33,706 nt of DNA, from the NCBI GenBank assembly GCA_016183075.1, contig JACPFH010000074.1:1-33706 (forward strand), written 5' to 3'. Origin of the DNA: Deltaproteobacteria bacterium. GTDB taxonomy: Bacteria > Desulfobacterota > Binatia > UBA9968. A model generated the notes under the pieces. That model made no database searches. It worked only from the letters and a program-made list of their open reading frames with translations, and was not told the origin of the DNA. Both the position numbers and the translations under genes were made by a program. This document shows, one piece after another, positions 1 to 28,169 of the stretch. Every line of letters begins with the position of its first letter. The first letter of the stretch is position 1.

Positions 1-417
1 GTGGAGGATATACTGGTTCGTTTGGCGCGTTGCTGCCACCCGCTGCCCGGAGAGACGATTCTGGGTTTTATAACCCGGGGAAGGGGCGTCACGGTTCACG
101 TGGCAAGCTGTCCGACGGTGCTGGAGAGCGATCCCCAAAGGAAGATCGAAGTAAGCTGGCAGGCGGACGGGCAGGAGCCGCGACCGATCAAGATCGAAGT
201 CAGCTGTATCGACAGGCCCGGCTTGTTAGCGGCGATCAGCGCCGCCATTACCAGTGCGGACGTCAATATCGCGCGCGCGCAGGTACGGACGTTTCCCGAT
301 CAAAAGGCATTGAACTCCTTCGAGGTGATGATCAGCAGCTCGGAGCAGCTGCGGCGGGTTCTGCAGAGCATCGGCAAGGTGAAAGGGGTTTACCGAGCCG
401 TCCGGGCAAGGGGCTAG
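1..417 (+). CDS. RelA/SpoT-family (p)ppGpp synthetase/hydrolase, C-terminal fragment (5' end outside window)
   Basis: ORF open from base 1, stop TAG 415-417. It has the conserved CC/zinc-finger-like segment RLARCCHPLPGE..ILGFITRGRGVTVH. This is followed by an ACT-like segment IKIEVSCIDRPGLLAAISAAI, typical of long RSH enzymes. Confidence 0.85.
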   Translation: MEDILVRLARCCHPLPGETILGFITRGRGVTVHVASCPTVLESDPQRKIEVSWQADGQEPRPIKIEVSCIDRPGLLAAISAAITSADVNIARAQVRTFPDQKALNSFEVMISSSEQLRRVLQSIGKVKGVYRAVRARG

Positions 418-420
418 CAA

Positions 421-541
421 GACGACCGGGGACCGATGACCGGGACGGAAAAACGACCGACGACCGGAGACGGGGGACCGGGATGAAAAAACGACCGAGG
501 ACCGGGGACCGAGGCCCGTCTTCGGTCTCCGGTCTCCCGTC
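421..541. repeat. REP-like GACCG(A/G)GGACCG repeat cluster with a long hairpin between convergent genes
   Basis: Iterated GACCGGGGACCGA / GACCGAGGACCGG motifs. Hairpin arms are 500-512 (GACCGGGGACCGA) and 522-534 (TCGGTCTCCGGTC): 13 bp with one G-T pair and a 9-nt loop. The 13-mer GACCGGAGACGGG (462-474) recurs as its reverse complement at 13047-13059. Confidence 0.6.
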
Positions 542-549
542 TGTGTATG

Positions 550-741
550 TCAAACGGCTTTCTCCACTCTGCCCGAGTGAACGCACTGGGTGCAGACCAG
601 GATCCGACGGACTGCCCCGTCGACCCGGGCCCTTACCTTCTGAAGATTCGGCTTCCACACCCGTTTTGTCCGGTTGTTGGCGTGGCTCACGTTGTGACCT
701 ACCGATCGCCCTTTGCCACAGATGGAACAAATCCTGGCCAT
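550..741 (-). CDS. rpmB: 50S ribosomal protein L28
   Basis: [37 protein letters not shown]... (63 aa) is a canonical L28. The ORF-track start at 867 is an upstream extension; Met43 of that ORF (ATG at 741) is the real start. Confidence 0.95.
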
Positions 742-743
742 AA

Positions 744-1217
744 CTAGTTCTTTCGCATCCTTTCGATAATCTCCGTGGTCGAGTAGCGGCCCAAATAGGG
801 AACCACCGCCACCGTACCTCCGCCCGATTCCACGATGTCGGCTCCCACGATGGTTTCCTTTGCCCAATCCCCGCCCTTCACGAGAACATCCGGCTGCAAT
901 TCCCGGATAAGTCCGTGAGGGTCAGGATCGCTGAATAAGACAACGTAGTCTACCATTTCGAGCGCGGCAATCAACTCCGCCCGGTCGGATTCAGGTAGGA
1001 TCGGGCGGTTCGGCCCTTTGATCGCCTTAACGGAGCTGTCCGAGTTCAAGCCGACCACCAAAAGATCACCGAGTTTTTTTGCTTCTCGGAGCAGGTGGAG
1101 GTGGCCGCGGTGGAGCAGGTCGAAGCAGCCGTTGGTGAAAACGACTTTTTTACCCGCGGACTTGGCCCGGGCGACGATTCTTTTTAGCTCCGCGATCTCG
1201 CACATCTTCTTCTGCAC
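744..1217 (-). CDS. rfaE2: D-glycero-beta-D-manno-heptose 1-phosphate adenylyltransferase (RfaE domain II type cytidylyltransferase)
   Basis: 157 aa with [19 protein letters not shown] (the HxGH nucleotidyltransferase motif) and a length typical of stand-alone RfaE2/HldC. Its stop lies 2 nt from the rpmB start. Confidence 0.88.
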
Positions 1218-1258
1218 GTTCGATGGCTAGCATTTCGCATGGGCGATTGCAACGGTCC

Positions 1259-1287
1259 TTGACCTCACTTAGAAATTCAGATAAGGT
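1259..1287 (+). promoter_or_regulatory. candidate sigma70-type promoter for the UbiD-family gene
   Basis: TTGACC (1259-1264), 17-nt spacer, TAAGGT (1282-1287). A strong AGGAGG RBS at 1329-1334 lies 5 nt before ATG 1340. Sequence match only. Confidence 0.3.
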
Positions 1288-1339
1288 CCTGAAAATCCCC
1301 ACCAGCGGTTTTTAGCGGTTTCAAAAACAGGAGGAAATT

Positions 1340-2788
1340 ATGCAGTATCGGGATCTCAGGGAGTGGATTCAGCTCGCCGGCGAGATGGGCGAGGTCAAGA
1401 TGCTGAACGGTTGTGACTGGGACCTGGAGATCGGCGCGGTGACGGAGCTCGTTCATCATAAGGAAGACGGCCCGGCGGTAGCGGTATTGTTTGACGAGAT
1501 TAAAGGTTACCCGAAGGGCTACCGCGTCCTGTCCAACTCCTTGAGTTCGCGCAATCGCTTAAGTCTCACCTTAGGCCTTCCGCCCGGCGACACCAAGATG
1601 GATTTTGTCCGCATATGGAAGGACAGGTACAAACAGATCAAGCCGATGCCGCCCAAATTTGTCAAAGACAGCCCGTTGTTTGAAAACGTGTATCGGGATG
1701 ATGAAGTCGATCTGCTCAAATTTCCGACTCCCAAGTGGCATGAGCATGACGGCGGCCGCTATATCGGGACGGGCAGCCTCGATATCACCCGTGATCCGGA
1801 TGAAGGGTGGGTGAACTGGGGAACCTACCGTGTCATGATCCACGACAGGAACACGGTCGGTTTCTATATCTCGCCCGGCAAGCACGGGAGAATCCAGCGC
1901 GACAAATACATAAGCTCGGGAAAGCCGTGTAAAGTGGCCATGTCCTTCGGCCACGATCCTCTTATGTTCCTGGCCGCCAGCGTCGAGGTTCCCTACGGGA
2001 TCCCCGAATACGAGTTTGTTGGAGGCGTGCGGGGAGAACCGCTCGAACTGATCGAGGGGGAATATACAGGCCTTCCGATTCCCGCTACGGCCGAAATCGT
2101 CGTGGAAGGGGACGCAATTTTCGATCAGCCGAGAACCGAGGGGCCGTTCGGCGAATGGACAGGATATTATGGCAGCGCCGAGAGGTCTGAGCCGATTGTC
2201 AAGATCAAGAGGCTCTATCACCGCAACAACCCCATCATTCTGGGCTCGCCCCCGGGCAGGCCGCCGGCAGAGCTCGGGTGGTATCGCTCCTATCTGCGCT
2301 CCGCTCTGATCTGGGATGAAATGGAGAAGGCCGGCGTGCCGGATGTCAAAGGCGTTTGGCTTACTGTTTCCGGCGGGAGCCGGCTTATTTTAGGTGTTTC
2401 GATCAAGCAGCGCTATCCGGGGCATGCCCGCCAGGCAGCCTTGGTCGCATCGCAATGCCACGCGGGGGCCTATCTCGGGCGCTACGTGATCGTCGTGGAC
2501 GACGATATCGATCCGTCCAATACCGATGATCTGATCTGGGCGATGGCGACCCGGTCCGATCCGGATACGGACATCGATATCATCCGGCGTTGCTGGAGCG
2601 GACCGCTCGACCCGATCATCCATCCCACGAAGAAAGGTTTCAACTCCCGGGCCATCATCGACGCGTGCCGGCCCTTCGAGTGGATAAAAGATTTCCCCAA
2701 GGTGGCCGAGTCCAGCAAGGAAGTTCTGGATGCGACGGCCAAGAAATGGGGGACCTTGCTCTTCGGTAAGGACGGAGGAAAAGCTTAG
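1340..2788 (+). CDS. UbiD-family (prFMN-dependent) decarboxylase
   Basis: 482 aa. N-terminus MQYRDLREWIQ..., plus FGEWTGYY and overall length/layout typical of UbiD / 3-octaprenyl-4-hydroxybenzoate carboxy-lyase-like enzymes. No ubiX is adjacent. Confidence 0.88.
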   Translation: MQYRDLREWIQLAGEMGEVKMLNGCDWDLEIGAVTELVHHKEDGPAVAVLFDEIKGYPKGYRVLSNSLSSRNRLSLTLGLPPGDTKMDFVRIWKDRYKQIKPMPPKFVKDSPLFENVYRDDEVDLLKFPTPKWHEHDGGRYIGTGSLDITRDPDEGWVNWGTYRVMIHDRNTVGFYISPGKHGRIQRDKYISSGKPCKVAMSFGHDPLMFLAASVEVPYGIPEYEFVGGVRGEPLELIEGEYTGLPIPATAEIVVEGDAIFDQPRTEGPFGEWTGYYGSAERSEPIVKIKRLYHRNNPIILGSPPGRPPAELGWYRSYLRSALIWDEMEKAGVPDVKGVWLTVSGGSRLILGVSIKQRYPGHARQAALVASQCHAGAYLGRYVIVVDDDIDPSNTDDLIWAMATRSDPDTDIDIIRRCWSGPLDPIIHPTKKGFNSRAIIDACRPFEWIKDFPKVAESSKEVLDATAKKWGTLLFGKDGGKA

Positions 2789-6871: not shown

Positions 6872-9079
6872 GTGATGCCGAAGAATATCGTCCTGTTTTC
6901 GGATGGCACGGGCAACAGCGCTGGCAAGCTCTTCAAGACCAATGTCTGGCGACTGTACCAGGCAGTCGACCTTTCGGGGCCTCGTCCGGCGCCGCCGAAT
7001 AAGCCGGAGCAGGTCGCCTATTACGATGATGGAGTGGGGACCTCGGCGTTTAAGCCTCTGGCGCTGCTTGGGGGCGCCTTCGGGTGGGGGCTGAAGCGCA
7101 ACGTTATCGACCTGTACACCTTCCTGTGCCGCAACTATGAGGAGGGCGATCGGATCTACGGTTTCGGCTTTAGCCGGGGAGCCTTTACCATCCGGGTTCT
7201 GACGGGGCTAATCAACAACCAAGGTCTGGTGCGCGCCGAGACTGAAGCGAAACTCAGGCGGTTGGCGACAGACGCCTTCCGCGCATACCGGGCCGAACGC
7301 TACCGAACGAGGATCGGATTGGAGCGCCCGGCGCGTGCTCTGCGTGGCCGCGTTATTCGAGCTAAAAACTTTATCAGACGGCTGGAAACCTACCGCATCC
7401 GGGATACGGCGCGGAAGCCGTCGATCGCGTTCCTCGGACTTTGGGACACCGTGGACGCCTATGGACTTCCCATCGACGAGCTCACACGGGCCTGGAACGC
7501 GCTCTTCCCGCTCTCAGTGCCGGATCGCGAGCCGAGCGCCATCGTCCGGCGCGCCTGCCATGCGCTTGCTCTCGACGACGAACGGAACACATTTCATCCC
7601 GTTCTGTGGAACGAAAACAACCTGCCGGGGCGGAACATCCAGACTCTACGAATCCAGGATGAACGGATCACCCAGGTCTGGTTCACCGGGATGCATTCCA
7701 ATGTCGGCGGCGGCTATCCGGACGACGCGCTGGCCCACGTCTCGCTCGACTGGATGATGGGTGAGGCGGAACGAGCGGGACTCGTGTTCAAGCCCGGCGA
7801 ACGCGATAAGATCAAGGCCGCGGCCGACATATGCGGGAGGCTCTACGACTCCCGTCGCGGGCTTGGCGGTACCTATCGCTACCTGCCGCGAAAGCTCGCC
7901 GTGCTCACGAACGATATCGACGACAAACGGAACCAGGTGGTCATCAAGCGCCCGAAAATGCATGAGAGCGTGATCGAACGGATCAAAAAAGGCGTTGACG
8001 GATACGTCCCTTTGGTTTTGCCGGCGCGATACGGTGTCGTCACGGCAAACGGCGATATTCTGGATGCGCCGCCGATCACCCCGAGCGCAACGCGTGTCAT
8101 AGAGCATCCCACACAGGCCCAGGCCCGCGCCAATCTTCAAGAAAAGGTGTGGAATCTCGTCTGGTGCAAGCGCGTCGCCTATTTCACTTCCATCATCGTC
8201 GCCGTGGCGCTCGCAGCCTTCCCCCTCTATCGCACCGCGAGATCGGCTTGCGAAGGGCCGCTTTGCGCCCTGTCGCCGGTCGTAACCGCCATCGGCATTT
8301 TTCTCCCGGGCTCGGCCGGTCCATGGCTCAATGCCTATGAGAGTCATCCGGGAAGCTTCGGGCTCCTCGTGTTATTGTTGATCGCCCTTGTTTATGCGGG
8401 GAGTCGGCTTCAAGTGCGTATATTTGACGAGATGCGCGCTATTTGGAGGCCCATCCTTGAAAATCTCGGCTCGCCCGTGCCGATCGCCGCTGCGCCTGGC
8501 GGGGCGCTCTTCCGGCTGCGCTCGCACCCGCTCTACCAGAGTTTTTTCAAATTTATGAGGCGGGTGGTGTTCCCTTTCGTTGCCGGTGTGACCGCTGCGC
8601 TGGTAATAGTGGGGGGCATCAGCCAGGGTGTTTTCGCGGTGATGAGCTCCGCTGGGATCATCTGTACGCCGACGAAGTCCGGTCGGCTCGAGCCGGGCAT
8701 CCTGGACAAAGGCACTTTTTCCAACGATGCGCTGTGTTGGGCTAGCGGCGTCGAGATCGAGGAAGGCAAGCGGTACCGTCTCACGATCACGATCGATGAC
8801 AAGGATCCTTGGATGGACGGGACTATCCGCCCCGGCATCGGCGGCTTCGGAACGGAGCTAATGACGCCCGCTATGTTTTCGGGACTCCTCCTTCGGCGCC
8901 ATATCGGAGAACCTTGGTTCAAGCCGATTGCTCGGATCGGGAACCAGGGCAGCGATGAGTATCCGCTCGGCCCGGTGGGTTCGTCGGTTCGCGATCGGAC
9001 GGCCAAAAGGCTCGTCGCCGAGATCGCGGCACGTCGCAGCGGCGAGCTTTTCTTGTTCGTCAACGACGCCAGTCCCTAA
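6872..9079 (+). CDS. DUF2235 (Tle1-like alpha/beta-hydrolase/lipase fold) protein with multi-pass membrane region and C-terminal beta-rich domain
   Basis: The N-terminal ~330 aa carry DUF2235 hallmarks: VLFSDGTGNS, YYDDGVGT, nucleophile elbow GFGFSRGA, GLWDTVDAYG, HALALDDERNTF. About four hydrophobic helices are encoded at nt ~8170-8650. A soluble tail ends ...SGELFLFVNDASP. GTG 6872 or ATG 6875 could be the start. Confidence 0.85.
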   Translation: MMPKNIVLFSDGTGNSAGKLFKTNVWRLYQAVDLSGPRPAPPNKPEQVAYYDDGVGTSAFKPLALLGGAFGWGLKRNVIDLYTFLCRNYEEGDRIYGFGFSRGAFTIRVLTGLINNQGLVRAETEAKLRRLATDAFRAYRAERYRTRIGLERPARALRGRVIRAKNFIRRLETYRIRDTARKPSIAFLGLWDTVDAYGLPIDELTRAWNALFPLSVPDREPSAIVRRACHALALDDERNTFHPVLWNENNLPGRNIQTLRIQDERITQVWFTGMHSNVGGGYPDDALAHVSLDWMMGEAERAGLVFKPGERDKIKAAADICGRLYDSRRGLGGTYRYLPRKLAVLTNDIDDKRNQVVIKRPKMHESVIERIKKGVDGYVPLVLPARYGVVTANGDILDAPPITPSATRVIEHPTQAQARANLQEKVWNLVWCKRVAYFTSIIVAVALAAFPLYRTARSACEGPLCALSPVVTAIGIFLPGSAGPWLNAYESHPGSFGLLVLLLIALVYAGSRLQVRIFDEMRAIWRPILENLGSPVPIAAAPGGALFRLRSHPLYQSFFKFMRRVVFPFVAGVTAALVIVGGISQGVFAVMSSAGIICTPTKSGRLEPGILDKGTFSNDALCWASGVEIEEGKRYRLTITIDDKDPWMDGTIRPGIGGFGTELMTPAMFSGLLLRRHIGEPWFKPIARIGNQGSDEYPLGPVGSSVRDRTAKRLVAEIAARRSGELFLFVNDASP

Positions 9080-19625: not shown

Positions 19626-20306
19626 GTGCGGGGACTGGTCATTGCGATTGACGGACCGGCAGGAGCGGGAAAAAGCACGTTGGCAAAACGGTTGGCAAAG
19701 GAGCTCGGTTACATGTACCTCGACACCGGCGCGATGTATCGGGCGCTGGCATGGAAGGTGGTTCTAGAGGGAATCGATCCGAAGGACGAAAGCGAGCTTA
19801 CGAGGGTTCTGGCGCTGACCAGGATCGAGCTCGTCGAACGGGACGGAGAGCTCCGGGTGCTCCTGGACGGGGAGGATGTGACCGGTCGGATTCGCACCCC
19901 GGAGGTCAGCCAAATGGCGTCGAAAGTTTCCACCTCGAAGGTGGTTCGCGACGCGATGGCGGAGCTGCAGAGGGCCATGGGCCTGCGGGGTAGAGTGGTG
20001 GCGGAGGGACGAGACATCGGCACCGTTGTATCTCCCGAAGCGGATGTCAAAATCTATCTTGACGCCTCGCCCGAAGAGCGGGCGCGGCGACGCTTCGAGG
20101 AGTTGAAGGGTCTCGGCAAGCAAGTGACGCTGGAGGAGACGCTGGCCGAGATCAATGAAAGGGACCGGCGCGACCAAGAGCGCGCCGTAGCGCCTCTGCG
20201 CAAGGCTGAAGACGCGTTGGTGATCGATTCTTCCCGCCTGAGCGCCGGGGCCGTAGCGGAGCGAGTCATGCGCGAAATCAAGCTTAGAATAGCAGTAATT
20301 CAATGA
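19626..20306 (+). CDS. cmk: (d)CMP kinase
   Basis: IAIDGPAGAGKSTLAKRLA and LDTGAMYRA. The start is placed at GTG 19626, after the aroA stop at 19585. Confidence 0.92.
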   Translation: MRGLVIAIDGPAGAGKSTLAKRLAKELGYMYLDTGAMYRALAWKVVLEGIDPKDESELTRVLALTRIELVERDGELRVLLDGEDVTGRIRTPEVSQMASKVSTSKVVRDAMAELQRAMGLRGRVVAEGRDIGTVVSPEADVKIYLDASPEERARRRFEELKGLGKQVTLEETLAEINERDRRDQERAVAPLRKAEDALVIDSSRLSAGAVAERVMREIKLRIAVIQ

Positions 20307-20323
20307 GATGGGAGGGCTATTTC

Positions 20324-22078
20324 ATGGCCCAGGAAGAACAAGACAAAAAACCCGGCAGCGCCCCCGGCGGTGAGGATTTTGAGCGGCTCTTCGAAGAGAG
20401 CATGCGCACCGTAAAACCGGGCGGCGTGGTCAAAGGCAAGGTCGTGGGGGTGACCCCCACTCATGTCATGATCGACGTCGGGTATAAGACCGAGGGGCAG
20501 ATTCCGATCGCGGAATTTTTGGATCGTCACGGTAAGGTCCAGGTTCAAGAGGGGGATGAAATCGACGTATACTTTGCTTCTTCGGAAGGCGAGAACGGGG
20601 GTATCGTTCTTTCCCGCCAACGCGCGGAGAACATAAAGGTCTGGGAGGAAATCGAGCGGGCCTACAACGAGGGTTCGGGCGTCGAGGGCGTGGTCGTCGC
20701 GAAGGTCAAGGGAGGATTCAAGGTGGACGTGGGGGTGAACGGTTTTCTGCCTGGCTCTCACGTCGACGTGCGACCGTCGCGCAATCCCGATAGGTATTTG
20801 GGCTTGAAGGACAGGTTTGCCGTTCTCAAGTACAACCGCCCGCGCGGCAACGTGGTGCTCTCGCGCCGCATGCTGTTGGAGAAAGAACGCGATGCGCTGA
20901 AGAAAGAGGTGCTCAAGGTTTTGGAGGAGGGCGTCATCCTGGAGGGCGCGGTAAAAAACATCACCGGGTACGGAGCCTTTGTCGACCTGGGGGGTATTGA
21001 CGGTATCCTGCACATCAGCGACATTTCCTGGGGGCGGATCAATCATCCCTCGGAGGTTATCAAGGTCGGCGAGCACATCAAAGTCGTCGTCCTCAAGTTC
21101 GATCCGGAGCGGGAGCGGATCTCGCTCGGAATGAAGCAGCTCCTACCCGATCCCTGGAATTCGGTCGAGGAGAATTATCCGGTCGGGTCTCGGGTGCGCG
21201 GCAAGGTGTTGAGCCTGACCGACTACGGCGCTTTCGTTGAGCTGGAGAAGGGGGTTGAAGGTTTGATTCACGTTTCCGAGATGTCGTGGACCAAGAAGGT
21301 TCCCCATCCTTCCAAGGTGCTGCAGGCCGGGGAAGTCGTCGAAGTCGCCGTGCTCAACGTGGATTCGGCTCATCGGCGCATCTCGTTGGGGCTAAAGCAG
21401 GTCCTGCCCAATCCTTGGGAGGAACTCAAACAGCAGTATCCGGCGGGCAGTGTCGTCAAAGGTCCGGTGCGCAACATCACCGATTTTGGCATCTTCGTGG
21501 GGGTTGCTGAGGGAATCGATGGCCTGGTCCATATCTCGGACCTCCATTGGACGAAGAAGATCAAGCATCCGTCGGAGCTCTACAAGAAAGGAGACATCGT
21601 GGAGGCCAGGGTTTTGGGCGTGGACGTGCGCAACGAGCGTCTCTCGTTGGGGATCAAGCAGCTCGCCACCGATCCGTGGCAGACCATCGCCGAGCGCTAT
21701 CCCGTGGGTTCCCGGGTCAAGGGGGAGGTGACCAGCGTGCCCGATTTCGGCGTATTCGTGCGCCTCCAAGAGGGCATCGAAGGGCTGATTCATGTATCGC
21801 AGCTGAGCACGGAGCGCGTCGACAAGCCCGCGAGTCTCTTCAAGGTCGGCGATCAAGTCGAGGCGGAGGTCATCCACGTGGTCCCGCAGGAACGTAAGAT
21901 CGGCCTGAGCGTCCGGGCGCTCAAAAAGAGCGAAGAGCGCCGGGAGATGGAAGCCTATCTCAAGAGGGAGAAGGAAGGCGGGAGGTTCTCTTTTGAATCG
22001 ATCCTGAACGAGGAGCTGAGGCTTGACCGGGATGAGGAAACCCGGCCGGCTCCCAAGAGAAAAGGGGGCAACGCGTAG
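20324..22078 (+). CDS. rpsA: 30S ribosomal protein S1
   Basis: Six S1/OB repeats (e.g. GKVLSLTDYGAFVELEKGVEGLIHVSEMSW). ATG 20324 is preceded by GGGAGGG at 20311-20317. ATG 20303 is the alternative. Confidence 0.94.
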   Translation: MAQEEQDKKPGSAPGGEDFERLFEESMRTVKPGGVVKGKVVGVTPTHVMIDVGYKTEGQIPIAEFLDRHGKVQVQEGDEIDVYFASSEGENGGIVLSRQRAENIKVWEEIERAYNEGSGVEGVVVAKVKGGFKVDVGVNGFLPGSHVDVRPSRNPDRYLGLKDRFAVLKYNRPRGNVVLSRRMLLEKERDALKKEVLKVLEEGVILEGAVKNITGYGAFVDLGGIDGILHISDISWGRINHPSEVIKVGEHIKVVVLKFDPERERISLGMKQLLPDPWNSVEENYPVGSRVRGKVLSLTDYGAFVELEKGVEGLIHVSEMSWTKKVPHPSKVLQAGEVVEVAVLNVDSAHRRISLGLKQVLPNPWEELKQQYPAGSVVKGPVRNITDFGIFVGVAEGIDGLVHISDLHWTKKIKHPSELYKKGDIVEARVLGVDVRNERLSLGIKQLATDPWQTIAERYPVGSRVKGEVTSVPDFGVFVRLQEGIEGLIHVSQLSTERVDKPASLFKVGDQVEAEVIHVVPQERKIGLSVRALKKSEERREMEAYLKREKEGGRFSFESILNEELRLDRDEETRPAPKRKGGNA

Positions 22079-27004: not shown

Positions 27005-27180
27005 CGCGAATTTTTTTCTGGTTTTTTCGTCTATCTATTCCGAAAAATAAACATACAAGTTGGACAGCTACGCCAGTATGGAGGCAATTCGATTGCCATA
27101 CGGCCTTCTATTGCTAGCCGTTCTCGGATGAGCAAGAATTGGGCTCATAGATCCAATAAGATTGCGAGGAGGGTAAGACG

Positions 27181-27747
27181 ATGGCTGTCACGTGGAAAAA
27201 AGATGCCGATGCTGCTTTAGCCGAGGCAAAGGAGCAGAACAGACCGCTACTCATTGACTTCAGCGCCGCCCCGGCCTGAGGCGGATGCGTTCGGCTGGAG
27301 GCCGAATCCTACTCTGACGACGAGATCTCCACATTCATCCACGAAAACTTCATCCCTCTCGGAGCGCACATCAAAGAACACCCCGCCTACTTCCATCGAT
27401 TTGACGTGCCGTGGACACCTACTGTCCTGGTGATGGATCCGAAGGGCACGGAAAGGCTGCGGGTAGAGGGATATCTCTCGAAGTCGGAGTTCCGCGCTCA
27501 GTTGGAGATGGGATTAGCGCGAATCGCTTTCATGCACAAGCAGTGGGCGGAGGCGGAGCGGAGATACGCCGAGGTGGCGGAGCGTTATTCGAAGACACTG
27601 GCTGGACCGGAGGCGGTGTACTGGAGGGGGGTGAGCCGCTACAAGGGGGCGAAGGATCATACGGCGCTCGGGGCAGTGGCGAAGGAACTGAAGGAGAAGT
27701 ATCCGGGGAGTGTGTGGGCGTTGAAAGCATCCATCTGGTTAGAGTAG
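27181..27747 (+). CDS. thioredoxin-fold (Thioredoxin_7/DUF255-like) protein with in-frame TGA at the CxxC position; probable selenoprotein (UGGC motif)
   Basis: ATG 27181 with a GAGGAGGG RBS. The frame is continuous with the listed ORF 27406-27747 except for one TGA at 27277-27279. Translation: ...NRPLLIDFSAAPA-U-GGCVRLEAE...FIPLGAHI...VPWTPTVLVMDPKGTE... The C-terminal half is helical. Confidence 0.78.
27283..27309 (+). promoter_or_regulatory. candidate bacterial SECIS hairpin
   Basis: GGA (27283-27285)/TCC (27307-27309) and TTCGGC (27290-27295)/GCCGAA (27301-27306), separated by a 4-nt bulge. The apical loop is UGGAG (27296-27300), starting 19 nt from the U of UGA. Confidence 0.55.
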
Positions 27748-28169
27748 GAGGGCCGGTGGATGGGGACAACGGCGCTGTCTGACAGGCAAGCTTTGGGGTC
27801 TGACTATCATAGTTCATGCCAAATCTGGTTGAGACCTCCCATCTGAGATAAGCAGGCGTCTTCGCAGGCGATTTTTCCGAGTGCATCCACCCCTGGCGAT
27901 CCGGCTCCCCTGGATCGAGAGTTAGCTTGAAGTGCGATTTTTTGTTCATGATTTCCGGTTTTTGCCTCTACAAACCTGAAAGGGCTCTCTGCTAGCGAAA
28001 GGAGCCGGCGCTTTGCGGTGTGGTGAGGCGCGTTAGAGGACGCCACGATTTGCCAATCCAGGCGCCCCTGCGTCATCGGACCACAGCGAGAACTTAGGGA
28101 GGTTGGCCTACCACAGAAGCGCGCAATGCGACTTGCGATCAGGCTTGGTTCAAGATAAATGAGGCAGAC

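What the first reader, a model, noticed from the sequence alone, without database searches (positions are those of the whole stretch)
27181..27747. Probable unannotated selenoprotein: thioredoxin-fold gene with TGA at the first CxxC position (U-G-G-C) and a SECIS-like hairpin
The ORF track shows only 27406-27747. Reading the same frame from ATG 27181 gives MAVTWKKDADAALAEAKEQNRPLLIDFSAAPA-[TGA]-GGCVRLEAESYSDDEISTFIHENFIPLGAHIK...VPWTPTVLVMDPKG. This is the layout of Thioredoxin_7/DUF255-like proteins. The single TGA (27277-27279) falls exactly where those families carry the N-terminal redox Cys.

Immediately downstream is a hairpin: GGA/TCC plus TTCGGC/GCCGAA, apical loop UGGAG. Its loop starts 19 nt after the UGA and contains G residues. 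That matches the published general features of bacterial SECIS elements. Sec-for-Cys replacement in thioredoxin-like CxxC proteins is an established class, but this gene would be missed or called a pseudogene by standard pipelines.
Basis: partly seen in the sequence, partly recalled or inferred. Interest (0 to 1): 0.8.

Follow-up and report, generated by a model that had tools for sequence, protein, structure and literature searches.

The report
Unannotated thioredoxin-like selenoprotein gene
A gene whose in-frame "stop" codon almost certainly encodes selenocysteine in the active site of a thioredoxin-like redox protein; public databases annotate only its tail, and the same gene, always with that codon, occurs in hundreds of soil-bacterial genomes.

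Summary
Window 27181-27747 (+) is one 188-codon frame with a single in-frame TGA (27277-27279). It encodes a Thioredoxin_7/Thioredoxin_2/DUF255-type domain followed by a TPR-like helical tail.

The TGA sits at the first position of the CxxC motif. It is TGA in 163 of 163 homologous loci: 80 species-representative genomes, 82 metagenome contigs and the window. More distant full-length relatives carry Cys there (39 of 52).

Codon periodicity upstream of the TGA matches that downstream, so the frame is translated across it. TGA ends 5 of 21 long ORFs in the window, so it is an ordinary stop here.

A 7-bp hairpin (27289-27307, loop UGGAR) begins 10 nt after the TGA. It meets all four published bacterial-SECIS criteria, shows two covarying pairs and has frozen synonymous sites. 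Three of four Cys-form relatives lack it.

GenBank annotates only residues 84-188 as a "tetratricopeptide repeat protein". No NCBIfam selenoprotein model reaches its cut-off.

The main gap is that selA/selB/selC/selD could not be examined in these genomes. A second selenoprotein-type gene (rhodanese, CxU) on one homologous contig gives indirect support.

Verdict: a real, uncatalogued member of the known UxxC thioredoxin-fold selenoprotein class.

The parts
27166..27173 (+). Shine-Dalgarno-like GAGGAGGG, 7 nt upstream of the start codon
   Evidence: Read directly. An SD-like motif lies within 20 nt of the start in 152 of 163 homologs.
27181..27747 (+). Complete coding sequence of the 188-residue thioredoxin-fold/TPR-like selenoprotein candidate (ATG 27181, Sec-TGA 27277, stop TAG 27745-27747)
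   Evidence: The start codon is ATG in 160/163 homologs. Coding periodicity is the same on both sides of the TGA. In-frame TAA at 27157-27159 lies upstream.
27277..27279 (+). In-frame TGA, residue 33, proposed selenocysteine codon; first position of the U-G-G-C redox motif
   Evidence: TGA in 163/163 homologous loci. Cys in 39 distant full-length relatives. Aligns with the first Cys of CVAC in DsbD-C.
27286..27288 (+). TGC, Cys36, resolving cysteine of the UxxC motif
   Evidence: Invariant C36 in alignments A1 and A3. TGC or TGT in all 83 sequences.
27289..27307 (+). SECIS-like hairpin: 5' arm 27289-27295 (GTTCGGC), apical loop 27296-27300 (TGGAG), 3' arm 27301-27307 (GCCGAAT)
   Evidence: 98.8% of cells paired. 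Covarying pairs C-G/U-A (42/33) and G-C/G-U/A-U (74/6/3). Slid controls 14-43%. RNAalifold predicts the same helix. Synonymous entropy is 0 at codons +4 to +6. MFE is -8.2 or lower in 83/83. The helix is intact in 80 further metagenome loci.
27190..27504 (+). Thioredoxin-fold domain (residues 4-108), Thioredoxin_7 / Thioredoxin_2 / DUF255-like
   Evidence: Pfam. PDB sequence matches to DsbD-C, 3f9u and 3ira. AF2 model with beta-alpha-beta-alpha-beta-beta-alpha topology. Foldseek match to 1vrs_D and thioredoxins.
27412..27423 (+). W78-T79-P80-T81, the cis-proline loop typical of thioredoxin folds
   Evidence: Invariant in A1 and A3. Its identification as the cis-Pro loop is inferred from its position before strand E81-85 in the model and from general knowledge of the fold.
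27481..27738 (+). C-terminal TPR-like helical domain (residues 101-186, five helices)
   Evidence: AF2 pLDDT above 90 for this part. Sub-threshold TPR_6/TPR_16/YbgF/BamD matches. Best full-length structural matches are the Trx+TPR proteins YbbN/CnoX, 3qdn and 3qou.
27430..27747 (+). The only part annotated in the source GenBank record (MBI2357781.1, 105 aa, 'tetratricopeptide repeat protein', GTG start)
   Evidence: The ORF-track fragment 27406-27747 is the same truncation with an earlier GTG.

Best explanation
Window 27181-27747 is a single gene for a 188-residue cytoplasmic selenoprotein. It has no signal peptide.

Ribosomes start at ATG 27181. UGA 27277-27279 is decoded as selenocysteine by Sec-tRNA(Sec) delivered by SelB. 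SelB is recruited by the mRNA hairpin at 27289-27307 (7 bp, loop UGGAG), which lies 16 nt downstream inside the coding sequence. This is the canonical bacterial SECIS mechanism.

The product is a DsbD-gamma/Thioredoxin_7/DUF255-type thioredoxin fold. Sec33 is the attacking nucleophile and Cys36 the resolving residue (U-G-G-C), with a conserved cis-Pro loop (T79-P80). This fold is fused to a small TPR-like helical domain that probably binds a partner or substrate, an architecture like the chaperedoxin CnoX/YbbN.

Shown here:
- the single translated frame;
- the conserved TGA paired with Cys in relatives;
- the selected RNA hairpin;
- the fold.

Inferred:
- the decoded residue is Sec rather than another amino acid;
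- SelB dependence;
- the thiol/selenol-disulfide oxidoreductase chemistry;
- the role of the TPR-like domain.
For: 1. **One frame.** A single TGA, a full-length Thioredoxin_7 match spanning it and a conserved ATG plus SD.
2. **TGA conservation.** 163/163 loci at 62-83% protein identity, with synonymous sites near saturation. Coding periodicity is identical upstream (0.54/0.35/1.43) and downstream (0.57/0.31/1.30) and absent in the 5' flank.
3. **Sec/Cys pairing.** 39 Cys in a CxxC motif among 52 full-length representatives at 28-50% identity. The column aligns with the first Cys of DsbD-C CVAC.
4. **TGA is a normal stop.** It ends 5 of 21 long ORFs in the window.
5. **The hairpin meets every criterion of the published bSECIS model** (PMC13188914):
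   - loop of 5 nt, UGGAR, matching N1-G-[G|U]-N-N2 with N1-N2 as U-A or U-G;
   - stem of 7 bp;
   - spacing of 16 nt;
   - MFE of -8.2 or lower in 83/83.
6. **RNA-level selection.**
   - Arg is only CGG (80/80), against four codons used at Arg +40.
   - Leu is only CTG (163/163).
   - Val/Ala is only GNT.
   - The V-to-A change is coupled to GAA-to-GAG on the other arm (odds ratio 198, p = 6e-15, uncorrected for phylogeny). The adjacent loop Glu codon shows no coupling (p = 0.18).
   - R-to-Q (CAG) is coupled to GCC-to-GCT.
7. **Cys-form controls.** Relatives with nearly the same peptide use other codons and lose the hairpin in 3 of 4 cases.
8. **Independent sign of Sec decoding in the clade.** A rhodanese gene on homologous contig L036 has TGA at the known CxU Sec position, its own hairpin, Cys in 98 homologs, and TGA again in a 58%-identical homolog. 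Acidobacteria include documented Sec users (PMC1794560 and PMC12013277).
Against: - No selA, selB, selD or tRNA-Sec was found in the window or in 162 loci, 1.74 Mb in total. The machinery is usually unlinked, so this is uninformative, but the defining requirement stays untested for these genomes.
- I found no paper linking Sec use with Pyrinomonadaceae, Blastocatellia or Binatota.
- Rfam has no match for the hairpin.
- The hairpin in the single window sequence is not significant against shuffles.
- The 16-nt spacing is at the lower limit of the model.
- One Cys-form relative (L169) retains the hairpin codons. Part of the hairpin could therefore persist without Sec function, or this is a relic.
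- The covariation statistics are not corrected for phylogeny.
- No experimental evidence of selenium incorporation exists.
Confidence: 0.9

Rival explanations
1. Pseudogene or sequencing/assembly error: a TGG/TGC-to-TGA nonsense change inactivated a thioredoxin-like gene.
For: A single-base change from TGC, TGT or TGG would give TGA. Full-length database homologs appear to carry W at this column.
Against: Those 'W' residues are TGA in the DNA. TGA is present in 163/163 independent assemblies. Purifying selection at the protein level acts on both sides of it.
Confidence: 0.01
2. The TGA is a real stop. The functional product is the C-terminal TPR-like fragment from an internal start, as GenBank annotates it (27430-27747), perhaps with the upstream 32 codons acting as a leader peptide.
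For: This is the existing annotation. Gene callers find GTG/ATG/CTG starts downstream in many homologs.
Against: - The called starts differ between homologs, giving products of 104 to 155 aa.
- The region between the TGA and those starts is as constrained as the rest.
- The thioredoxin fold needs strand 1 (residues 23-29), which lies upstream of the TGA, and the CxxC helix that spans it.
- Cys-form relatives are uninterrupted 186-215-aa proteins.
Confidence: 0.02
3. The UGA is recoded but not as selenocysteine. Candidates are Cys inserted through a SelB/tRNA(Sec)-like route, hairpin-stimulated near-cognate read-through (Trp/Cys/Arg), or a lineage-wide TGA reassignment.
For: The Sec machinery was not shown in these genomes. 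The hairpin alone cannot tell which residue is delivered. Cys is the residue in distant homologs.
Against: - TGA terminates 5/21 long ORFs in the window, so there is no reassignment.
- If Cys were the decoded residue, a TGA codon plus a costly frozen hairpin would have no advantage over TGC, yet it is kept in 163/163.
- The hairpin fits the SelB-type model in every criterion, including the invariant loop G at a freely synonymous site.
- A second Sec-type gene exists in the clade.
Confidence: 0.05
4. The hairpin is not a SECIS. It is either a by-product of the conserved peptide C-[VA]-R-L-E-A-E or an RNA element with another role (pausing, stability).
For: The peptide is highly conserved. One Cys-form relative (L169) has the same hairpin codons. 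There is no Rfam match.
Against: - Synonymous choices are frozen only in the stem codons (third-position entropy 0.42 against 1.3-1.4) and differ from the usage of the same amino acids elsewhere in the gene.
- Amino-acid changes on one arm are compensated on the other.
- Cys forms with an ARL[E/D] peptide use other codons and lose the helix.
- Position, loop and energy fit the bSECIS model.
Confidence: 0.04

Closest known systems
'Thiol:disulfide interchange protein' selenoprotein family (PF13098 / cd02953 DsbD-gamma-like, UxxC; Kryukov & Gladyshev 2004, listed in PMC13188914, PMC9312934, PMC2398784)
   Same: Thioredoxin_2 domain above the Pfam threshold. Sec at the first position of UxxC. The Trx domain is closest to the DsbD C-terminal (gamma) domain by sequence and structure.
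   Different: This protein carries a fused TPR-like C-terminal domain and has no signal peptide or membrane part. It is found in Acidobacteriota and Binatota-type soil MAGs rather than Geobacter/Syntrophus. Orthology with the reference sequence (WP_011366075.1) could not be tested.
Trx7/PDZ domain-containing (seleno)protein, NCBIfam NF041199
   Same: Thioredoxin_7-type domain. A selenoprotein form exists.
   Different: In NF041199 Sec is at the second position (CxxU) and the partner domain is PDZ. Here the motif is UxxC and the partner is TPR-like. Score is 19.5 bits against a cut-off of 300.
DsbD C-terminal domain (c-DsbD), e.g. PDB 1vrs_D, 4ip6, 1uc7
   Same: Best sequence match in the PDB. 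The CVAC active site aligns with U-G-G-C. Foldseek TM-score (target) 0.67, rmsd 2.9 A.
   Different: c-DsbD is a periplasmic domain of a membrane electron transporter and uses Cys. This is a free-standing soluble protein with Sec. NF001419 scores 31 bits against a cut-off of 330.
CnoX / YbbN chaperedoxin (PDB 3qou, 3qdn): thioredoxin fold + TPR domain
   Same: Same two-domain architecture, an N-terminal Trx fold followed by a C-terminal TPR-type helical repeat. Top full-length structural matches (E = 5.5e-5 and 8e-5, about 190-200 aligned columns).
   Different: Only 13% identity. The domain orientation differs (rmsd about 11 A). The Trx subfamily differs (PF00085 in CnoX; here PF00085 scores below its cut-off). 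The TPR part is much shorter. No selenoprotein form of CnoX is known to me.
DUF255 / YyaL / SSP411 N-terminal thioredoxin-like domain (PF03190; PDB 3ira)
   Same: PF03190 match above threshold (34.9 bits against 27) over profile positions 20-84, including the CxxC and the following E-S-[FY]-x-D motif. JGI names several homologs 'YyaL (SSP411 family)'.
   Different: Only the first roughly 65 residues of the 163-position profile match. The large alpha/alpha-toroid domain of YyaL/SSP411 is absent.
Bacterial SECIS element (E. coli fdhF type; bSECISearch consensus model)
   Same: Lies in the coding sequence immediately 3' of UGA. [quoted passage not shown] Stem of at least 4 bp. Spacing of 16-37 nt. 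MFE of -7.5 or lower. All are met.
   Different: Short (7-8 bp) with no conserved lower helix or bulged U. Spacing is at the minimum. No Rfam family matches it.

Membership tests
Bacterial selenoprotein gene (SelB/SECIS-dependent UGA recoding) | In-frame UGA conserved among orthologs, with coding constraint on both sides | tested here: met
   TGA in 163/163. Entropy at codon positions 1/2/3 is 0.54/0.35/1.43 upstream and 0.57/0.31/1.30 downstream.
Bacterial selenoprotein gene (SelB/SECIS-dependent UGA recoding) | Cys-containing homologs with Cys aligned to the UGA | tested here: met
   39 Cys among 52 full-length representatives, in a CxxC motif. Aligned with the first Cys of DsbD-C CVAC.
Bacterial selenoprotein gene (SelB/SECIS-dependent UGA recoding) | bSECIS model: apical loop of 3-9 nt and upper stem of 4-16 bp | tested here: met
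   Loop of 5 nt (27296-27300) and stem of 7 bp (27289-27295 / 27301-27307). 98.8% of cells paired.
Bacterial selenoprotein gene (SelB/SECIS-dependent UGA recoding) | bSECIS model: G in the first two loop positions (N1-G-[G|U]-N-N2) | tested here: met
   The loop is UGGAA or UGGAG in all sequences. The loop G at the freely synonymous Leu third position is G in 163/163. N1-N2 is U-A or U-G.
Bacterial selenoprotein gene (SelB/SECIS-dependent UGA recoding) | bSECIS model: 16-37 nt between UGA and the apical loop | tested here: met
   16 nt (27280-27295), with no indels in any homolog. This is the lower limit of the model.
Bacterial selenoprotein gene (SelB/SECIS-dependent UGA recoding) | bSECIS model: MFE of -7.5 kcal/mol or lower | tested here: met
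   The hairpin alone gives -9.5 in the window and -8.2 to -11.8 in 83/83.
Bacterial selenoprotein gene (SelB/SECIS-dependent UGA recoding) | selA, selB, selD and tRNA-Sec present in the same genome | not testable with these tools
   None lies in the window or the 162 loci, 1.74 Mb in total. Whole assemblies could not be read. Indirect support comes from a second Sec-type gene on L036 and from Sec-using Acidobacteria in the literature.
Bacterial selenoprotein gene (SelB/SECIS-dependent UGA recoding) | Selenium actually incorporated at the UGA position | not testable with these tools
   Needs 75Se labelling or mass spectrometry.
Redox-active thioredoxin-fold oxidoreductase | Thioredoxin-fold domain recognised above curated thresholds | tested here: met
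   PF13899 48.2 bits, PF13098 48.3 bits and PF03190 34.9 bits, all against a cut-off of 27. AF2 topology and Foldseek matches to thioredoxins.
Redox-active thioredoxin-fold oxidoreductase | CxxC-type dithiol motif at the start of helix 1, and a cis-Pro loop | tested here: met
   U33-x-x-C36 with C36 invariant. W78-T79-P80-T81 is invariant. The cis conformation is inferred, and the active-site loop has low pLDDT in the model, where W stands in for U.
'Thiol:disulfide interchange protein' selenoprotein family (PF13098/cd02953, UxxC) | PF13098 domain plus UxxC motif (the review's own classification rule: domain plus Sec motif) | tested here: met
'Thiol:disulfide interchange protein' selenoprotein family (PF13098/cd02953, UxxC) | Orthology or close similarity to the reference member WP_011366075.1, and the same domain architecture | not tested
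The TPR-like fusion is not mentioned for that family in the papers read.
Trx7/PDZ (seleno)protein NF041199 | Score above the curated cut-off; CxxU motif; PDZ domain | tested here: not met
   19.5 bits against a cut-off of 300. The motif is UxxC and there is no PDZ domain.
VPGUxxT thioredoxin-like (seleno)protein NF041383 / NF041382 | Score above cut-off; VPGUxxT motif | tested here: not met
   38.4 bits against 275 and 23.8 bits against 350. The motif here is A-P-A-U-G-x-C.
[quoted passage not shown] | Score above cut-off; full-length architecture | tested here: not met
   42.7 bits against 805 and 31.4 bits against 330. Only the C-terminal Trx-like part of each profile matches.
CnoX/YbbN chaperedoxin | Thioredoxin fold followed by a TPR domain (architecture) | tested here: met
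   Foldseek top hits 3qdn_A and 3qou cover the full length.
CnoX/YbbN chaperedoxin | Sequence-family membership (PF00085 thioredoxin plus the long YbbN-type TPR) | tested here: not met
   13% identity and rmsd about 11 A. PF00085 scores 20.1 bits against a cut-off of 23.5.

The most novel reading that the evidence does not exclude
This is an obligately Sec-containing, CnoX-like 'seleno-chaperedoxin': a redox protein with a client-binding TPR module. No Cys variant was found among 163 close homologs.

The gene is resident in several soil phyla: Acidobacteriota (mainly Pyrinomonadaceae/Blastocatellia), a Binatota-type genome (the window), and MAGs labelled Armatimonadota and Nitrospirota. Identity across these phyla is unusually high (64-83%) and the gene contexts are unrelated, which implies horizontal spread.

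If true, it would be one of the most widespread selenoproteins of aerobic soil bacteria. Selenocysteine decoding in these dominant but poorly cultured lineages would then be much more common than current catalogues show.
Probability: 0.3. Interest if true: 0.65.

Novelty: new member of a known kind. Interest (0 to 1): 0.5.

Why it matters
Replacing Cys with Sec in thioredoxin-fold CxxC proteins, directed by a downstream SECIS hairpin, is textbook biology, so the mechanism is not new. What is new is the family.

- **Not catalogued.** A Thioredoxin_7/DsbD-gamma-type domain fused to a TPR-like tail with UxxC does not appear in the 2026 inventory of prokaryotic selenoproteins that I read. No NCBIfam model covers it.
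- **Systematically mis-annotated.** GenBank keeps only a 104-155-aa tail, named 'TPR protein' or 'thioredoxin fold domain-containing protein'. JGI calls on short contigs translate the codon as Trp.
- **Widespread.** It occurs in at least 298 species-representative genomes and at least 583 metagenome contigs, mostly from soil. Every copy examined has TGA.

Consequences:
- It offers a clean marker for Sec decoding in Pyrinomonadaceae/Blastocatellia and Binatota-type bacteria, for which I found no published selenoproteome.
- It is a concrete target for fixing annotation pipelines.
- It is a candidate link between soil selenium availability and redox homeostasis in abundant soil bacteria.

Tried and rejected
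- **Single-sequence folding.** z = -0.3 and -1.4. This is not evidence by itself.
- **Rfam.** Gathering and permissive scans found no SECIS family, only a chance snoRNA hit at E = 0.92.
- **tRNA-Sec.** ARAGORN on the window and 162 loci found none.
- **Sec machinery proteins.** tblastn with E. coli SelA/SelB/SelD against 1.74 Mb found none. Whole assemblies could not be read. A database search with E. coli queries would return only enterobacterial hits, so it was not spent.
- **Conserved operon partners.** None found. No neighbour family recurs in more than about 10 of 81 loci, and the recurring ones are unrelated housekeeping or protease genes. None of the window's nine flanking genes recurs near the gene elsewhere.
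Not conserved.
- **'W at column 33' as a real Trp.** Rejected, because the DNA has TGA.
- **Window from Pyrinomonadaceae.** Assumed at first and then rejected. Ribosomal protein S1 points to Binatota / 'Deltaproteobacteria bacterium' MAGs.
- **Recent horizontal import into the window.** No compositional signal.
- **Exact look-up of the window's vWA protein and of P0391 in the contig index.** Not on record.
- **Literature searches.** Nothing on Sec in Pyrinomonadaceae, Blastocatellia, Pyrinomonas or Binatota.
- **Promoter/terminator scan around the gene.** Nothing above chance.
Full report
**1. The observation**

The ORF listing reports only 27406-27747 in this frame. Translating from ATG 27181 gives a 188-residue product interrupted once, by TGA at 27277-27279 (residue 33), and ended by TAG at 27745-27747. 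ATG 27181 is the first start after an in-frame TAA (27157-27159) and is preceded by GAGGAGGG at 27166-27173.

With the TGA read as Cys, Pfam gives these matches:
- Thioredoxin_7: 1.2e-12, residues 4-87, the whole profile;
- Thioredoxin_2: 1.4e-12;
- Thioredox_DsbH/DUF255: 1.8e-08;
- sub-threshold TPR matches in the C-terminal third.

The TTCGGC/GCCGAA stem with loop UGGAG is at 27290-27306. Taken alone, this hairpin is not better than shuffled sequence (z = -0.3 and -1.4). The single sequence therefore could not settle the matter.

**2. The TGA is conserved, and the database 'W' is an artefact**

A protein search returned 641 relatives. Eighteen full-length (about 188-aa) JGI entries all showed W at column 33. 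Nearly all the others were truncated to 104-155 aa.

Reading the DNA of two 'W' entries showed TGA at that codon. The W comes from gene calls that used a TGA=Trp code on short contigs.

- A scan of one genome per species found 298 genomes encoding a relative. In the 80 best loci, the two JGI contigs and the window, the codon is TGA in 83/83.
- A metagenome scan matched at least 583 contigs, and 80/80 fetched loci have TGA.
- Over all 163 sequences the start codon is ATG in 160, and an SD-like motif precedes it in 152.
- Variation has the same three-base periodicity upstream of the TGA (entropy 0.54/0.35/1.43 at codon positions 1/2/3) as downstream (0.57/0.31/1.30). The 5' flank has none (1.86/1.86/1.82).

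The frame is therefore translated from the ATG and kept under protein-level selection on both sides of the TGA. TGA also ends 5 of 21 long ORFs in the window, so it is an ordinary stop codon in this genome. Pseudogene, sequencing error and code reassignment are excluded.

**3. Cys in more distant relatives**

An exhaustive profile-free search of 1.84 billion representatives found 3057 relatives. Among 52 full-length representatives at 28-50% identity, the column holds Cys in 39, always within CxxC, and Ser in 4. An example is P0122...FTAAPACTGCARLDAES.

Against the PDB, the column aligns with the first Cys of the CVAC active site of the DsbD C-terminal domain. This is the classical Sec/Cys pairing at the nucleophilic position of a thioredoxin-fold redox motif. 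C36 and the W78-T79-P80-T81 loop are invariant.

**4. The hairpin is a selected RNA structure that fits the bacterial SECIS model**

There are no indels, so the 69-nt stretches align trivially. Results for the helix 27289-27295 / 27301-27307:
- 98.8% of cells form standard pairs, against 14-43% when the 3' arm is slid by 1-3 nt.
- Pair 27290/27306 is C-G in 42, U-A in 33, U-G in 1 and C-A in 7.
- Pair 27293/27303 is G-C in 74, G-U in 6 and A-U in 3.
- RNAalifold predicts the same helix unprompted.

These covariations link an amino-acid change on one arm to a synonymous change on the other. Val-to-Ala (GTT to GCT) goes with GAA-to-GAG. Arg-to-Gln (CGG to CAG) goes with GCC-to-GCT. For the first pair the odds ratio is 198 (Fisher p = 6e-15, not corrected for phylogeny). 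The neighbouring loop Glu codon shows no association (p = 0.18).

Synonymous variation vanishes exactly in the stem codons:

| Codon | Usage in the stem | Same amino acid elsewhere in the gene |
|---|---|---|
| Val/Ala (+4) | GNT only | Ala columns at 1.5-1.9 bits |
| Arg (+5) | CGG 80/80 | Arg +40 uses CGC 56, CGT 13, CGG 8, CGA 6 |
| Leu (+6) | CTG 163/163 | 4-6 codons at other Leu columns |
| Ala (+8) | GCC or GCT only | Ala columns at 1.5-1.9 bits |

Third-position entropy is 0.42 in the hairpin codons against 1.3-1.4 elsewhere.

The criteria of the published bSECIS model (PMC13188914, Fig. 2 legend) are all met:
- Loop of 3-9 nt: here 5 nt, UGGAR.
- Stem of 4-16 bp: here 7.
- G in the first two loop positions, with the common N1-G-[G|U]-N-N2 pattern: here U-G-G-A-R with U-A or U-G closing. 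The loop G sits at a freely synonymous site and is G in 163/163.
- Spacing of 16-37 nt: here 16.
- MFE of -7.5 or lower: here -9.5 in the window and -8.2 to -11.8 in 83/83.

As a control I fetched the DNA of four Cys-form relatives. Three use other codons for almost the same peptide and do not keep the helix:
- L167: GCA CGG CTT GAT GCC GAG. Only a 4-bp core folds; the loop UUGAU has no G in its first two positions; MFE -6.6.
- L170: GCG CGT CTC GAG GGG GAC. 3 of 7 pairs.
- L172: GCC CGC CTG GAC GCT GAG. 4 of 7 pairs; MFE -1.0.

One Cys form, L169, keeps GTT CGG CTG GAG GCC GAG. This may be a relic after a Sec-to-Cys switch. The frozen hairpin is therefore tied to the TGA forms and is not a mere by-product of the peptide.

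**5. The Sec machinery: the open point**

No tRNA-Sec and no SelA/SelB/SelD homolog lies in the window or in any of the 162 loci, 1.74 Mb in total. These genes are usually unlinked to selenoprotein genes, so this says little. I could not read whole assemblies.

Indirect support:
- A bSECIS-model scan of my own recovered 75 of the 83 family members then in hand, and only 12 other candidates, in about 1.2 Mb.
- One of those, L036:5099-5431, lies on the same Pyrinomonadaceae contig as a family member. It is a complete rhodanese domain (PF00581, 55.8 bits) interrupted by TGA at Y-C-T-U.
- CxU is the motif the reviews give for a known rhodanese-type selenoprotein form. The best NCBIfam match is NF041203, 'rhodanese-related (seleno)protein', at 99 bits against a cut-off of 115.
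- Its homologs carry Cys in 98 cases, 'W' in 5, and are truncated exactly at the TGA in 4.
- A 58%-identical homolog again has TGA, with a hairpin in the same register.
- Acidobacteria include documented Sec users (PMC1794560 Table 2; Occallatibacter riparius in PMC12013277).
- I found nothing published on Sec in Pyrinomonadaceae, Blastocatellia or Binatota.

**6. The protein**

An AlphaFold2 model (built from P0001, 79% identical to the window's product; pLDDT 83, pTM 0.82) shows a thioredoxin fold: helix 5-19, strand 23-29, helices 36-56, strand 58-63, helix 68-74, and strands 81-85 and 91-96. Five very confident helices follow (101-186).

The best full-length PDB matches are YbbN/CnoX (3qdn, 3qou), the Trx-fold plus TPR 'chaperedoxin' architecture, at 13% identity and with a different domain orientation. 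For the Trx part the best matches are DsbD-C (1vrs_D), 3f9u and thioredoxins.

There is no signal peptide or hydrophobic N-terminus, and homologs start at the same Met. The protein is therefore probably cytoplasmic.

Gene neighbourhoods are not conserved, so context gives no functional hint.

The most likely chemistry, inferred from the fold and motif, is as follows. Sec33 attacks a substrate disulfide or oxidised thiol. Cys36 resolves the mixed selenenylsulfide. The TPR-like domain provides partner or client binding.

**7. Relation to what is known**

[quoted passage not shown] The GOS paper defines it as cd02953, DsbD-gamma. By the reviewers' own rule (domain plus Sec motif) the present protein falls under or next to that heading.

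I could not compare it with the reference sequence, and no TPR fusion is described there.

The other thioredoxin-like selenoprotein models in NCBIfam are far below their cut-offs, and their motifs or architectures differ:

| Model | Score (bits) | Cut-off (bits) |
|---|---|---|
| TsoB | 42.7 | 805 |
| VPGUxxT type 2 | 38.4 | 275 |
| DsbD | 31.4 | 330 |
| Trx7/PDZ | 19.5 | 300 |

I therefore file it as a new member of the known class of UxxC thioredoxin-fold selenoproteins, not as a new kind of system.

**8. Source and distribution**

The window is a whole GenBank contig of 33,706 bp from a MAG labelled 'Deltaproteobacteria bacterium'. Its only annotation for this gene is MBI2357781.1, equal to window 27430-27747, a 105-aa 'tetratricopeptide repeat protein'.

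The window's ribosomal protein S1 is 80-92% identical to proteins of 'Deltaproteobacteria bacterium' and 'Candidatus Binatota/Binatia' MAGs. The host is therefore Binatota-like.

The closest copies of the selenoprotein gene (77-83%) are on Pyrinomonadaceae-labelled contigs and unlabelled metagenome contigs. Most of the 80 genome loci are Pyrinomonadaceae/Blastocatellia, with single cases labelled Binatia, Thermoanaerobaculia, Bryobacteraceae, Terriglobia, Chthonomonadaceae and Sulfobium.

The gene's GC3 follows each host's composition. In the window it matches its neighbours: 58.4% GC and GC3 0.71, against 58.6% GC for the whole window and GC3 0.66-0.79 for 12 other window genes. None of the window's flanking genes recurs near the gene elsewhere.

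High cross-phylum identity with unrelated contexts suggests old horizontal spread. MAG labels are not fully reliable, and I did not build a tree.

The rest of the window is ordinary chromosome with nothing selenium-related: ubiD, mutL, miaA, ubiA, cobW, an aromatic amino-acid operon, cmk-rpsA, sppA, a MoxR/vWA pair and an ABC permease.

**9. Verdict**

- Confidence that this is a SelB/SECIS-dependent selenoprotein gene: about 0.9.
- The remaining doubt rests on the unexamined Sec machinery and the absence of any experimental selenium evidence.
- Novelty: a new, widespread and systematically mis-annotated member of a well-known kind.
- Interest: moderate (0.5).

Noticed in passing
L036:5099-5431 (+), about 5 kb upstream of the family gene on a Pyrinomonadaceae MAG contig; also L165:1156-1527 and L166:424-630: A 110-residue rhodanese-domain gene with an in-frame TGA at Y-C-T-U (CxU) and its own downstream hairpin. 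Best NCBIfam match is NF041203, 'rhodanese-related (seleno)protein' (99 bits, cut-off 115). Homologs carry Cys in 98 cases, 'W' in 5, and are truncated at the TGA in 4. A 58%-identical homolog also has TGA. It is probably a second mis-annotated selenoprotein in this clade.
   Followed up: yes
window 1-33706; window 20303-22078 (rpsA); window 27430-27747: The window is a complete GenBank contig of a MAG labelled 'Deltaproteobacteria bacterium'. Its S1 protein is closest to Binatota/Binatia-type MAGs (80-92%), whereas the selenoprotein gene is 77-83% identical to copies on Pyrinomonadaceae-labelled contigs. No flanking gene is shared with any of 162 other loci, and composition matches the host. 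Together these hint at old horizontal spread across soil phyla.
   Followed up: partly
L001:561-563, L002:903-905 and the JGI proteins P0001-P0017, P0019: JGI gene calls on short metagenome contigs translate the in-frame TGA as Trp (a code-4-style call). This yields full-length proteins with a spurious W at the Sec position. The artefact both hides and, once recognised, reveals selenoprotein genes.
   Followed up: yes
L169:910-1494 (+): A Cys-form relative (42% identical, TGC at the Sec column) keeps the same hairpin codons (GTT CGG CTG GAG GCC GAG) that are frozen in the TGA forms. This may be a relic SECIS after a Sec-to-Cys switch. Three other Cys forms lack the hairpin.
   Followed up: partly
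L050:14030-17388 (-): A cluster of 11 tRNA genes (Lys, Asn, Met x2, Thr x2, Ala, Cys, Gly, Asp, Glu) within 3.4 kb, about 4 kb downstream of the family gene on an Acidobacteriota MAG contig. No tRNA-Sec is among them.
   Followed up: no
L029, within the ORF pair 26-1843 (+): A perfect 17-bp inverted repeat (CTCTGTGTCTCTGTGGT ... ACCACAGAGACACAGAG, -30.7 kcal/mol) lies directly after a TGA that separates two long same-frame ORFs. It is more likely an intergenic terminator or repeat element than a SECIS.
   Followed up: no
window 6872-9079 (+): A 735-residue protein with a full T6SS Tle1-like phospholipase catalytic domain (PF09994, 1e-71) sits between miaA and ubiA among housekeeping genes. No other T6SS gene is in the window.
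   Followed up: no
protein P0051 (149 aa, source 'src'): One database homolog reads ...FSAAPASCTYDRLEAES... where the family has ...AAPA-U-G-A-C-A-RLEAES. The length is the same but five residues differ at the active site. It could be a local frameshift pair or an aberrant translation.
   Followed up: no
window 27857-27880 (+): The only terminator-like site near the gene (5-bp stem plus a T-run) lies about 110 nt after the stop codon. The count of such sites in the region is no higher than in shuffles, so it may be chance.
   Followed up: no
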